From Escherichia coli (GTDB lineage: Bacteria; Pseudomonadota; Gammaproteobacteria; Enterobacterales; Enterobacteriaceae): DNA of 64,000 nt. The stretch lies in the NCBI RefSeq assembly GCF_002854065.1, contig NZ_CP024147.1; one strand, 5' to 3'. Position numbers: made by a program. Positions 48,201 through 51,200 of the stretch are shown here, piece by piece; position 1 is the stretch's first letter, and each line of letters opens with the position of its first letter.

Positions 48201-51200
48201 CAGCGCCTCGCTGGACGAAATGGCGGAAGCGTATTTAATCGAACAACTGAAACAGTGGATTGGGCATCGCACGCTGGTCATCGCCACTCACCGCACGGCG
48301 ATGCTGCAACTGGTGGACCGCATTATCGTGATGGATCAGGGGCGGATTGTAATGGACGGCGCGAAAGAGGCCATTTTGCGTGAACAGGGCGAACCCACGG
48401 CGCGACGGGTGGTGTTGCAGGAAAAGAATAAGGGGTCTGCCGCATGAACGGACAACTGCAATATAACCGTGGCCTGACTGAACCCCGCCTGCCGCGTTCG
48501 GCGTTGGCGGTACGCGTTACTGCTGTGATGCTGTTTTGTTTTCTTGGCTGGGCGTGGTACTTCCAGCTTGATGAAGTCACCACCGGCAGCGGCACGGTAG
48601 AACCTTCCGGGCGCGAACAGGTGGTGCAGTCGCTGGAAGGCGGAATTCTGTATCATCTGAACGTGAAAGTTGGCGATATAGTTGAACAGGGCCAGCCGCT
48701 GGCGCAGCTTAACCGCACTAAAACGGAATCCGACGTCCAGGAAGCGATGTCGCGGCTGTACGCTGCGCTGGCAACCTCGGCGCGGCTGCGGGCGGAAGTG
48801 AGCAATAAACCGCTGGTCTTCCCTGACGAACTGAATAAATTCCCCGAACTTATCGAGTCGGAAACGGCGTTGTACAACACTCGCCGCGACGGGTTGAACA
48901 AAGCCACCACCGGGCTGACGCAGGGGAGCAGTCTGGTCAATCGCGAACTGGCGATGACCCAGTCGCTGGTAAAACAGGGGGCAGCGAGCAGCGTCGAAGT
49001 ACTGCGCCTGCAACGCCAGGTCAATGAACTGGAAAACAAACTTAGCGACGTGCGCACGCAATACTACGTACAGGCGCGGGAAGAGTTAGCGAAAGCCAAT
49101 GCGGAAGTGGAAACCCAGCGTTCGGTGATCCGTGGGCGTGAAGACTCCCTCACCAGGCTCAACTTTACTGCGCCAGTTCGTGGCATTGTTCAGGATATTG
49201 ACGTCACCACAGTTGGCGGCGTCATTGCCCCCGGTGGTAAACTGATGACCATCGTGCCGCTGGATGAGCAACTGCTGATTGAGGCAAAAATCTCCCCGCG
49301 CGATGTGGCGTTTATCCATCCGGGGCAAAAATCGCTGGTGAAAATAACTGCCTACGATTACTCCATCTACGGCGGCCTGCCGGGAGAAGTAGGGGTGATA
49401 TCACCAGACACCGTGCAGGATGAAGTGCGGCGCGATGTTTATTACTATCGGGTGTACATTCGCACTTTCAGCAACCATCTGGAAAACAAAAGCAAACAGC
49501 AGTTTCCGATATTCCCCGGTATGGTGGCGACGGTCGATATCCGCACCGGCAAAAAAAGCGTGCTGGATTATCTGTTGAAACCCTTTAACAAAGCACAGGA
49601 GGCGTTGCGCGAACGATGAACATTAGCGATGTAGCAAAAATTACCGGCCTGACCAGCAAAGCCATTCGCTTCTATGAAGAGAAGGGGCTGGTGACGCCGC
49701 CGATGCGCAGCGAAAATGGTTATCGAACCTACACGCAGCAGCATCTCAACGAATTGACCTTACTGCGCCAGGCGCGCCAGGTGGGCTTTAACCTGGAAGA
49801 GAGCGGCGAGCTGGTGAATCTGTTTAACGACCCGCAGCGTCACAGTGCCGACGTCAAACGTCGTACGCTGGAGAAGGTGGCGGAGATCGAACGGCATATC
49901 GAAGAACTGCAATCTATGCGCAACCAGCTACTGGCGCTGGCGAATGCCTGCCCCGGTGATGACAGCGCCGACTGCCCGATTATCGAAAATCTCTCCGGCT
50001 GCTGTCATCATCGGGCGGGGTGAAAATCAGTTAATTCCCGTTTGCACCGAAAGAATATGCTGCAAACTTTCTACCATAATGCGCCCCGACTGAAATAAGC
50101 CTTCCTGGATTTCATTGTTAACATTCACAGCGTGAACCAGGGAGGCTAATAATACTACTTGCAAGAAGGCAAAAATAAACGCACCGATAATCATAATATG
50201 CGTCAGGGGTATTTTCCTTTGTTCCTTCATTTTAAATAACCCACAAACTGGCCTTCTTTCATTAAGGCGACTTTTCCTGTGTGATGATAAACAATGACGT
50301 TATACAGACCTGACTGATAAACAGTGGCATCTTTATTGTCTTCATCAATTGCACATAATGAATCATTGAGATAAGCAAAGTTTTTACTGCTCATTCTAAA
50401 GGTCATGCCAAATCCTTTATAAATGGCTTTCTTTGCCGCCTGGGCGTGTTGTGCGGCTTCTGCATTTTTAAATGCCTGTGCCTCGGATGCACTTAAAATA
50501 GCCGCCTGACGCTGCTGTTCTGCGAGATAACAGGTGTCATGGCTGACGCCCTGCGCCTGGCAATCTGCGATGCGGGAAGCGGGTGAGCTACAGCCAGCCA
50601 GTAATATAACCGCCAGCAGGGAAAACGATTTAATGGAGCTATTCATCATTGTTAACCTTAAATAATGTACAAATTAATGAAGAGGTGAAAACCGGCAAGC
50701 TTCCTTGCTCTTATTTATATTGAGGATTGAAATATTAGAACGAATATCCCACGCCGACACCCGCGCCGAAATCAGATTGTGTATCCGCAGAGACACCGGC
50801 TTTAATCACGGTATGCGTTCCGGCATTAAAAGATGTTCCTACAGACACCGCAGATTCACCGTTGAAGGTTCCCGCTCCCGCTGACACCATCATCAAGTCA
50901 CCGGTTTTCACCTGGGGTTGTGAGGCGATAGCGATGGCAGATGCAGTTCCCGCATTGGCTTCTTTACGATTATCCTCAACTTCGTTTTTCAGCGAACTGA
51001 AATGGTTATTGAGCGTGTTAATTTGCTGGCTGTTATCTGCAACCCGTTTTTGGGTGTTGGTTAACTGTTGGTGCGTTTGGGTTACGTCTTGTGACAGGCT
51101 GTCAATTTGTTCATGTGCCTGGGCAGACTCCTGCGCCAGACTTTGCATTTGTTTATCGTATTGAGTCCTTTCATTTTGCTGTTGTGCTGCCACATCGGTT

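What the first reader, a model, noticed from the sequence alone, without database searches (positions are those of the whole stretch)
50027..50649. Translationally coupled lipoprotein and small membrane protein gene pair downstream of the adhesin-like gene
A 140-aa lipoprotein (lipobox LAGC, four Cys) and a 67-aa single-TM protein overlap by ATGA on the minus strand directly downstream of the YadA-like gene, forming a compact unit of unknown function. Neither matches any family I recognise. They could be accessory, immunity or assembly factors for the adjacent adhesin, or an independent envelope module.
Basis: inference. Interest (0 to 1): 0.4.

Follow-up and report, generated by a model that had tools for sequence, protein, structure and literature searches.

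The report
Adhesin-linked lipoprotein and small membrane protein
Two small, real but uncharacterised E. coli envelope genes (an outer-membrane lipoprotein and a tiny inner-membrane protein) sit at the end of a horizontally acquired adhesin cassette (O-island 29), and the lipoprotein may be a third, previously unrecognised kind of helper for trimeric autotransporter adhesins.

Summary
A 140-aa lipoprotein (50227-50649, minus) and a 67-aa single-pass membrane protein (50027-50230, minus) overlap by ATGA, 85 bp downstream of a YadA-anchor adhesin gene. Both are under purifying selection.

The window is E. coli. The pair belongs to a ~2.6-kb low-GC islet between cueR and ybbJ, which is O-island 29 of O157:H7. 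The lipoprotein is z0638, called "IHP2" in UniRef. The islet is present in 26% of complete E. coli genomes.

No Pfam, NCBIfam or PHROG family covers either protein. The lipoprotein has two domains: a Cys-stapled helical N-domain and an 8-stranded beta C-domain. Its family is tiny (149 cluster representatives among 1.84 billion).

In 18 of 29 loci across Enterobacterales the lipoprotein lies directly downstream of a trimeric autotransporter, in several different chromosomal contexts, often with a divergent HTH-like gene. The 67-aa partner is found only in Escherichia and Pseudocitrobacter. Other clades carry unrelated small genes in the same overlapping slot.

My best reading (about 0.4) is an accessory factor for the adhesin's membrane anchor, similar in role to SadB or TpgA but unrelated to both. 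An adhesin-independent envelope role remains a strong rival. Function is untested. The only published mutant showed no motility defect.

The parts
50227..50649 (-). Lipoprotein gene (z0638; UniRef name 'IHP2'), 140 aa
   Evidence: ORF. RefSeq annotates it as 'lipoprotein' WP_001301626. The published z0638 qPCR primer maps to 50388-50409. UniRef name IHP2. dN/dS 0.04-0.07.
50590..50649 (-). Signal peptide and lipobox (L17-A18-G19-C20). Residue +2 is Ser, which suggests outer-membrane sorting.
   Evidence: Read from the sequence. The lipobox is conserved. The +2 residue is S, T or Q, never D, across loci. Outer-membrane sorting is inferred from the Lol +2 rule and was not tested.
50446..50589 (-). 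N-domain (about residues 21-68): conserved motif C30-x3-G-x-S-x-D-x-C40-Y-L-A-E-Q, predicted helical hairpin and a long Ala-rich helix
   Evidence: Alignment. Model helices 23-32 and 37-66, pLDDT 54-75. The same domain occurs alone as 63-69-aa lipoproteins in Buttiauxella, Aeromonas, Pseudomonas and Skermanella. TraV (TIGR02747) is a consistent but sub-threshold match.
50230..50430 (-). C-domain (about residues 74-140): eight-stranded beta domain with conserved E103, Y111, G114, Y121, G125 and K126
50227..50230 (-). ATGA overlap: lipoprotein stop and small-ORF start
   Evidence: The same 4-base overlap is kept in Escherichia spp. and Pseudocitrobacter, and with unrelated third genes in other clades.
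50027..50230 (-). 67-aa small membrane protein gene, not annotated in EDL933
   Evidence: ORF. RefSeq WP_000664215/6/7. Homologues only in Escherichia, Shigella and Pseudocitrobacter. dN/dS 0.09-0.31 within Escherichia.
50129..50197 (-). Predicted transmembrane helix of the small protein (residues 12-34)
   Evidence: Hydrophobic segment, maximum KD19 2.65-2.95 in orthologues. Topology inferred from the positive-inside rule.
50650..50734 (-). 85-bp spacer between the adhesin and lipoprotein genes. Contains a TAAGGT Shine-Dalgarno-like site (about 50655-50660) and only a weak hairpin.
   Evidence: Sequence. Folding z-score 0.06. No minus-strand terminator-like site lies in the spacer; the nearest minus-strand match (50764-50740) lies in the last codons of the adhesin gene. 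Co-transcription is inferred.
50735..51751 (-). YadA-anchor trimeric autotransporter gene (z0639 'gmrA' / ECs0548 'Saa-like' / ihp1 locus); interrupted here by TAG at 51350-51352
   Evidence: Pfam YadA_anchor 2.1e-12. Translation. Intact 338-aa orthologues. Published gmrA primers map to both ends of the ORF.
51846..51874 (-). Sigma-70-like promoter match upstream of the adhesin gene
   Evidence: Consensus scan only, 9 of 12 positions. Weak evidence.
52118..52480 (+). Divergent 120-aa gene (z0640) with a predicted XRE-type helix-turn-helix N-terminal domain
   Evidence: Found next to the adhesin in 12 of 29 loci. Model pLDDT 81. Foldseek top hits are HigA2, MqsA and controller-protein HTH domains, probability 0.99 but E 0.3. 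Pfam MqsA_antitoxin E 0.08.
50024..52582 (.). Islet (O-island 29) between cueR and ybbJ
   Evidence: Absent from K-12-like strains, where cueR abuts ybbJ. GC 34-51% against 52-59% in the flanks. Named OI-29 in PMC5826968.

Best explanation
The two genes are the distal genes of a self-contained, horizontally acquired cassette. The cassette has a divergent HTH-like gene (z0640), a short head-less trimeric autotransporter adhesin (TAA), a lipoprotein, and a small membrane protein. I propose that the lipoprotein is exported, lipidated at C20 and sorted to the periplasmic face of the outer membrane. There it would act on the conserved membrane-anchor end of the co-expressed TAA, helping its assembly, stability or tethering. 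This is the role played by SadB or TpgA for other TAAs, carried out here by an unrelated protein. The 67-aa protein is an inner-membrane, N-in/C-out add-on specific to Escherichia and Pseudocitrobacter. It is made by translational coupling, and its periplasmic helix may bind or position the lipoprotein. Shown: the gene structure, conservation, synteny, domain architecture and absence from known families. Inferred: operon status, outer-membrane location, any contact with the adhesin, and the helper function itself.
For: A YadA-anchor gene lies directly upstream on the same strand in 18 of 29 loci that carry a full-length lipoprotein. These include Escherichia, Pseudocitrobacter, Enterobacter, Phytobacter, Rahnella, Ewingella and Yersinia. 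The chromosomal settings differ: cueR/ybbJ; fetA/qmcA; beside a recombinase near wrbA-yccJ-agp; and thiM/sucrose genes. In E. coli the pair and the whole islet co-occur (1413 versus 1409 genomes) and are lost together in K-12-type strains. Within Escherichia the adhesin passenger is mosaic (338 to 579 aa; N-terminal part 39-52% identical), whereas the last 110 aa of the adhesin are 92-97% identical and the lipoprotein 98%. That is the pattern expected if the downstream genes work with the anchor. The spacer is 85 bp with no convincing terminator. All three annotated OI-29 genes are expressed in DMEM and repressed together on HeLa attachment (Table S3 of PMC5826968). No Asp occurs at +2. There is precedent: SadB and TpgA are operon-encoded TAA helpers (PMC3953254; bioRxiv 10.64898/2026.01.22.700529).
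Against: Eleven of the 29 loci have the lipoprotein with no adhesin within 6 kb (for example Klebsiella grimontii, Raoultella and Pluralibacter). Serratia silvae keeps the HTH gene, the lipoprotein and a third gene but has no adhesin. Each domain also occurs on its own elsewhere, including on a plasmid-like contig. In this window the adhesin is truncated while the pair is intact. There is no similarity to SadB, YajI, BamE or OmpA-like domains. The published delta-z0638 mutant, which also removes the small ORF's start codon, was tested only for motility, so there are no data on the adhesin. All adhesin-linked loci may descend from one ancestral cassette, so the 18 loci are not independent events.
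Confidence: 0.4

Rival explanations
1. The lipoprotein is an adhesin-independent envelope protein, for example a periplasmic binder or inhibitor of an incoming host or competitor enzyme in the manner of MliC/PliC. It would be co-transcribed with the adhesin only because both serve host or surface interactions.
Against: Foldseek finds nothing at E<=0.001, and its top hits are unrelated VWD domains. hhalign of the C-domain against MliC/PliC gives probability 0.6%. None of 47 members hits Pfam MliC even at E<=10. The MliC motifs SxSGAxY and YxxxTKG are not present as such. This model does not explain the strong enrichment next to TAA genes.
Confidence: 0.3
2. The pair forms a two-membrane bridge. 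The outer-membrane lipoprotein and the inner-membrane type-II protein would meet in the periplasm, in a spanin-like arrangement, to couple the adhesin or outer membrane to the inner membrane or to signal envelope status.
For: The predicted locations are complementary: +2 Ser in the lipoprotein, and an N-in TM with a periplasmic helix in the small protein. The genes overlap and are likely translationally coupled. Both proteins have long helices available for pairing.
Against: The small protein is restricted to two genera. It is replaced by a soluble 70-81-aa protein, by other genes, or by nothing elsewhere, so the bridge cannot be the family's core function. There is no phage or lysis context. 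The only spanin hit covers the signal peptide alone (E 0.033).
Confidence: 0.12
3. The lipoprotein and its variable downstream gene form a toxin/immunity-type or exclusion-type module carried alongside the adhesin.
For: The third gene varies by clade yet always overlaps the lipoprotein stop. This pattern is common for cognate pairs. Weak sub-threshold hits to entry-exclusion TrbK and to Cor appear for the N-domain.
Against: The lipoprotein itself is highly conserved, whereas polymorphic toxins diversify. Some loci have no third gene. There is no toxin-like domain. The deletion mutant was viable (PMC5826968). The exclusion-protein hits are dominated by the signal peptide.
Confidence: 0.05

Closest known systems
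SadB (Salmonella; paralogue YajI), the lipoprotein that enhances surface display of the TAA SadA
   Same: Both are small lipoproteins encoded in one transcription unit with an enterobacterial TAA. Both are lost together with the adhesin in K-12. Both have an N-terminal helical part followed by an all-beta C-terminal domain (PMC3953254).
TpgA (Acinetobacter sp. Tol 5), periplasmic peptidoglycan-binding partner of the TAA AtaA
   Same: It is encoded downstream of the adhesin in the same operon and acts in the periplasm on the anchor side of the adhesin.
   Different: TpgA homologues are defined by a BamE-like domain, with or without an OmpA-type peptidoglycan-binding domain. Neither domain is detected here.
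MliC/PliC/ACP/PhiA lysozyme-inhibitor fold
   Different: There is no sequence or profile similarity, no Foldseek support, and the family motifs are absent. The resemblance is at fold level only.
TraV (F-type conjugation lipoprotein), N-terminal region
   Same: Both have a lipobox followed by a two-Cys motif and a helix. TIGR02747 is the top or second NCBIfam hit for 10 of 10 members tested (E 4e-5 to 0.025). JGI names one homologue TraV.
   Different: Every score is far below the curated cut-off (15-24 bits against 44.75). Part of the match is the signal peptide. There are no conjugation genes nearby, and the rest of TraV is missing.

Membership tests
SadB/YajI TAA-helper lipoproteins | Sequence or profile similarity to SadB (4C47) or YajI (2JWY) | tested here: not met
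   A profile of 22 family members searched against all PDB sequences at E<=10 returned three chains (2pms_C, 4l3r_A, 4o2x_A); neither 4C47 nor 2JWY was among them.
SadB/YajI TAA-helper lipoproteins | Ig/MATH-like beta-sandwich C-domain of about 100 residues on a long trimeric coiled coil | tested here: not met
SadB/YajI TAA-helper lipoproteins | Inner-membrane retention (Asp at +2) | tested here: not met
   The +2 residue is S, T or Q in all loci, never D. The actual location was not measured.
SadB/YajI TAA-helper lipoproteins | Enhances surface display of the cognate TAA | not testable with these tools
   Needs wet-lab work. The only published mutant was scored for motility.
TpgA-type TAA partners | BamE-like (SmpA/OmlA) domain, with or without an OmpA_C peptidoglycan-binding domain | tested here: not met
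   No such Pfam or NCBIfam hit at E<=1 for the protein, nor at E<=10 for 47 C-domains.
TpgA-type TAA partners | Encoded downstream of the TAA gene in the same operon | tested here: met
   85-bp gap, same strand, no convincing terminator. The arrangement is conserved in 18 of 29 loci. Operon status is inferred.
MliC/PliC (COG3895) lysozyme inhibitors | Match to Pfam MliC or profile similarity, including the SxSGAxY and YxxxTKG motifs | tested here: not met
   hhalign probability 0.6%. None of 47 members hits MliC. The motifs are not present in alignments A2 or A3.
MliC/PliC (COG3895) lysozyme inhibitors | Eight-stranded antiparallel beta-barrel fold | tested here: inconclusive
TraV (TIGR02747) | Score above the curated cut-off, and a conjugative T4SS context | tested here: not met
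   15-24 bits against a cut-off of 44.75. No transfer genes appear in any locus examined.
Phage two-component spanins (Rz/Rz1) | Inner-membrane type-II protein plus outer-membrane lipoprotein within a phage lysis cassette | tested here: not met
   No phage genes in the islet. The PHROG spanin hit has E 0.033 and covers the signal peptide only. Gene order is reversed.
Bacterial lipoproteins (Lgt/LspA substrates) | Signal peptide ending in a lipobox [LVI][ASTG][GA]C | tested here: met
   LLAGC at residues 16-20, conserved in homologues. Lipidation itself was not tested.

The most novel reading that the evidence does not exclude
This lipoprotein family is a third class of dedicated trimeric-autotransporter helper, structurally unrelated to the other two. 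It would be anchored in the outer membrane, act on the conserved anchor of short head-less TAAs, and carry a clade-variable, translationally coupled third subunit. The 2026 global screen would have missed it, because that screen required a YadA head domain.
Probability: 0.3. Interest if true: 0.6.

Novelty: new variant of a known kind. Interest (0 to 1): 0.4.

Why it matters
Only two TAA helper proteins, SadB and TpgA, have been described. A recent global survey found no others, but it screened only adhesins that have a YadA head domain. A small outer-membrane lipoprotein repeatedly linked to head-less TAAs would widen the picture of how type Vc adhesins are assembled or anchored. It would also be easy to test in E. 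coli. The cassette sits in O-island 29 of EHEC O157:H7 and in about a quarter of E. coli genomes, including ExPEC and EPEC lineages. Its adhesin gene is both the 'ihp1' diagnostic target for O145:H28 and the gene published as the transcription factor 'GmrA'. Working out what the cassette's proteins do therefore has practical and corrective value.

Tried and rejected
1. Known-family searches for both proteins in Pfam, NCBIfam, PHROGs and PDB sequences gave nothing above threshold.

3. SadB/YajI and TpgA membership was rejected.

4. The afdb50 Foldseek library was unavailable.

5. I looked for a common functional neighbour of the stand-alone N-domain lipoproteins. Contexts are genus-specific and no partner recurs.

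6. Contexts of C-domain-only proteins (plasmid-like contig, wrbA-yccJ region) gave no functional clue.

7. I checked whether the ORFs are fragments of a disrupted larger gene. This was rejected: full-length homologues of the same size are widespread.

8. DUF6799 gave weak hits in 4 of 47 members (E>=0.096), which I judged to be a shared beta-hairpin motif only.

9. I did not attempt a lipoprotein-small protein fusion model, because the tool returns no contacts or PAE.

10. A functional link to copper (cueR adjacency, His-rich linkers in some orthologues) was considered. I left it as coincidence, because the cassette also occurs at unrelated sites.
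Full report
**Observation.** One is a 140-aa ORF at 50227-50649 and the other a 67-aa ORF at 50027-50230, both on the minus strand. The lipoprotein stop and the small-ORF start share ATGA at 50227-50230. The 140-aa protein begins MMNSSIKSFSLLAVILLAGC, so it has a lipobox with Cys20, and it has four cysteines. The 67-aa protein has a basic N-terminus, one strongly hydrophobic segment (about residues 12-34) and an acidic helical tail. Under the positive-inside rule this implies an N-in, C-out inner-membrane protein. A YadA_anchor-containing gene (Pfam 2.1e-12) ends 85 bp upstream. In this window that gene carries an in-frame TAG at 51350-51352. This is a single G>A difference on the plus strand from a 99.9%-identical strain in which the 338-aa gene is intact. 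The adhesin is therefore truncated here while the pair is intact.

**Where this is.** The window is E. coli chromosome. The pair lies in a ~2.6-kb islet between cueR (49616-50023) and ybbJ (52583-53041). The islet contains, in order, the small gene, the lipoprotein, the adhesin and a divergent 120-aa gene. K-12-like strains lack it, and there cueR abuts ybbJ. Islet GC is 34-51% against 52-59% in the flanks. The pair is single-copy and chromosomal in 1416 of 5426 complete genomes. The whole islet is present in 1409, so the pair and the islet travel together.

The islet is O-island 29 of O157:H7 (2,643 bp; z0638, z0639 'gmrA', z0640; PMC5826968). Published primers place z0638 on the lipoprotein (50388-50409), gmrA on the two ends of the adhesin ORF (51728-51751 and 50738-50756), and z0640 on the 120-aa gene. 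UniRef calls the O157 lipoprotein 'IHP2'. The 67-aa gene was not among the three OI-29 genes annotated in EDL933.

**Are they real genes?** Yes. dN/dS against other Escherichia lineages is 0.04-0.07 for the lipoprotein and 0.09-0.31 for the small ORF. The small ORF keeps its frame, length and 4-base overlap out to Pseudocitrobacter, where synonymous sites are saturated. RefSeq annotates both genes.

**What the proteins are.** No Pfam, NCBIfam or PHROG model reaches threshold for either protein. The lipoprotein family is very small. A profile search of 1.84 billion cluster representatives finds 149 at E<=1e-3, essentially all Enterobacterales plus scattered Proteobacteria.

The lipoprotein has two separable domains.

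- **N-domain (about residues 21-68).** It carries the striking motif C-x3-G-x-S-x-D-x-C-Y-L-A-E-Q-N-R-Q. The model shows a helical hairpin (helices 23-32 and 37-66) that C30-C40 could staple, at modest confidence. The domain exists alone as 63-69-aa lipoproteins in Buttiauxella, Aeromonas, Pseudomonas, Atlantibacter and even Skermanella. Those genes sit in genus-specific contexts with no recurring partner. TraV (TIGR02747) is the top NCBIfam hit for eight of ten members tested and second for the other two. All scores are 15-24 bits against a cut-off of 44.75, and part of each match is the signal peptide.

The residue after the lipid cysteine is S, T or Q, never D. By the Lol rule this predicts outer-membrane sorting. 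That is an inference and was not measured.

**Neighbourhood.** This is the most informative evidence. Of 29 loci with a full-length lipoprotein, 18 have a YadA-anchor gene directly upstream on the same strand (the L004 gap is 468 bp). The loci came from one genome per species plus metagenomic contigs. The genera include Escherichia, Pseudocitrobacter, Enterobacter, Phytobacter, Rahnella, Ewingella and Yersinia.

The chromosomal settings differ:

- between cueR and ybbJ in E. coli;
- between fetA and qmcA in Pseudocitrobacter;
- beside a recombinase near wrbA-yccJ-agp in P. faecalis, with two tandem adhesins;
- next to thiM in E. asburiae.

Twelve loci also keep the divergent z0640-like gene. 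Its model (pLDDT 81) matches XRE-type HTH domains such as HigA2, MqsA and controller proteins. Foldseek probability is 0.99 but E is 0.3, and the Pfam MqsA hit has E 0.08. So the unit is HTH gene, adhesin, lipoprotein and a third gene.

Within Escherichia the adhesin passenger is mosaic: 338, 415, 436 and 579 aa, with the N-terminal part 39-52% identical. The last 110 residues are 92-97% identical and the lipoprotein 98%.

Against a strict dependence on the adhesin, 11 loci have the lipoprotein without an adhesin. Serratia silvae keeps the HTH gene, the lipoprotein and a third gene with the adhesin cleanly missing.

**The partner gene.** The 67-aa protein has homologues only in Escherichia, Shigella and Pseudocitrobacter. 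The slot it occupies is conserved, but its content is not:

- Rahnella, an uncultured enterobacterium and S. silvae have an unrelated, soluble 70-81-aa protein there. The same ATGA overlap is kept in the first two groups; in S. silvae the gene starts 6 bp downstream.
- Pantoea conspicua has a 69-aa ORF with a C-terminal TM segment.
- One Enterobacteriaceae isolate has a 211-aa secreted protein.
- E. asburiae and E. chuandaensis have nothing.

None of these has a Pfam match. The pair as such is therefore a lineage-specific elaboration, not the core of the system.

**Mechanism.** The 85-bp spacer has no convincing terminator. The three annotated OI-29 genes are expressed in DMEM and repressed together on HeLa attachment (Table S3). 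These points suggest one transcript covering adhesin, lipoprotein and small gene.

My best-supported model (confidence about 0.4) has three parts. The lipoprotein is an outer-membrane, periplasm-facing accessory that acts on the conserved anchor end of the co-expressed TAA. It would support assembly, stabilisation or tethering, which is what SadB and TpgA do in other systems (PMC3953254). The small inner-membrane protein would be an optional partner.

The lipoprotein is not a member of either known helper family. It shows no sequence or fold match to SadB or YajI. No BamE or OmpA domains are detected. Its membrane sorting signal is the opposite of SadB's.

The main rival (about 0.3) is an adhesin-independent periplasmic function. 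This could be an inhibitor or binder, given the MliC/PliC-like fold, that is merely co-regulated with the adhesin. A spanin-like two-membrane bridge (about 0.12) and a toxin/immunity-type module (about 0.05) are less likely.

**What is known.** The literature treats z0638 as a hypothetical protein. Its deletion and complementation had no effect on motility or on fliC/motA expression. The deletion arm ends at 50226, so that mutant also removed the ATGA and hence the small ORF's start codon. In effect it was a double mutant, and it was scored for one phenotype only.

A 2026 survey states that SadB and TpgA are the only described TAA helpers. It found no others, but it screened only adhesins with both a YadA anchor and a YadA head. 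For the OI-29 adhesin, Pfam detects only the anchor.

**Verdict.** The pair is real, conserved and uncharacterised, and it belongs to no described family. The lipoprotein's link to trimeric autotransporters is well supported by synteny but functionally untested. I rate it a new variant of a known kind (adhesin-linked accessory lipoprotein), with interest 0.4.

Noticed in passing
window 50735-51751 (minus): The gene published as the DNA-binding transcriptional activator 'GmrA' (z0639; PMC5826968) is this YadA-anchor trimeric autotransporter. The cloning and FLAG-tag primers map to its first and last codons. It has a signal peptide and a YadA_anchor domain (2.1e-12). The Sakai annotation calls it the 'Saa-like' adhesin ECs0548. 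A cytoplasmic DNA-binding role conflicts with this architecture. The neighbouring z0640 is the HTH-like protein of the islet.
   Followed up: partly
L067 5182-5297 (O145 strain RM9467-C1), orthologous to window 50735-51751: The ihp1 real-time PCR primer and probe used to detect EHEC O145:H28 match exactly inside the O145 allele of this adhesin gene. I recalled the sequences from memory (Perelle et al. 2004). So ihp1 is a passenger variant of the OI-29 adhesin, and 'IHP2' (UniRef name) is the lipoprotein studied here.
   Followed up: partly
window 51350-51352: A nonsense mutation (CAG>TAG) truncates the adhesin after residue 133 in this strain. The nearest relative, at 99.9% identity, has the intact gene.
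   Followed up: yes
window 52118-52480 (plus): z0640 is a conserved divergent partner of the adhesin gene in many genera. Its N-terminal ~64 residues resemble XRE-type HTH domains (HigA2, MqsA, C-proteins). It is a likely cassette regulator, but the E-values are weak.
   Followed up: partly
window 50189-50230: The published delta-z0638 deletion arm ends at 50226. It therefore also removes the start codon of the then-unannotated 67-aa gene, and the complementing clone lacks that gene.
   Followed up: yes
L018, L022, L023, L028, L026 (gene overlapping or just after the lipoprotein stop): An unrelated, conserved 70-81-aa soluble protein (motif DQFKHLPPEQQYxCL...GHTATLSKF...VSW) replaces the 67-aa membrane protein in the Rahnella/Serratia clade. 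It has no Pfam family.
   Followed up: partly
L039-L061 (e.g. L042 6001-6210): The N-domain occurs as a stand-alone 63-69-aa lipoprotein. It is highly conserved: tblastn best segments are 48-72% identical to the E. coli N-domain across Aeromonas, Pseudomonas, Buttiauxella and Alphaproteobacteria. It has no described family and no recurrent neighbour.
   Followed up: partly
window 46285-49619 and upstream; L001 1-6020: Upstream of cueR lie a type I secretion ABC transporter, a HlyD adaptor and a giant BapA/SiiE-like adhesin gene, which is a pseudogene in O157. K-12 retains only a short remnant. cueR is thus flanked by two adhesin islets.
   Followed up: no
L067 2182-3405: O145 strains carry an extra 407-aa hypothetical gene between cueR and the 67-aa gene. 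It is absent from the window.
   Followed up: no
P0014, P0016, P0018, P0191; L029: Several orthologues have His-rich linkers (for example KHHHHAR, HHHRHKR) between the N- and C-domains. The cassette sits near cueR/copA in three genera. No functional link to metals was tested.
   Followed up: no
P0217 (1212 aa), P0234 (970 aa): Two large proteins from the representative library match the lipoprotein profile in 8 and 4 separate stretches. This suggests tandem repeats of the C-domain-like unit. They were not examined.
   Followed up: no
window ~52490-52600: The sequence between z0640 and ybbJ matches many places per E. coli genome (median 6, up to 15, for the 3-kb query). It differs by a 76-bp indel from O157. 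This is probably a REP-type repeat at the islet border.
   Followed up: no
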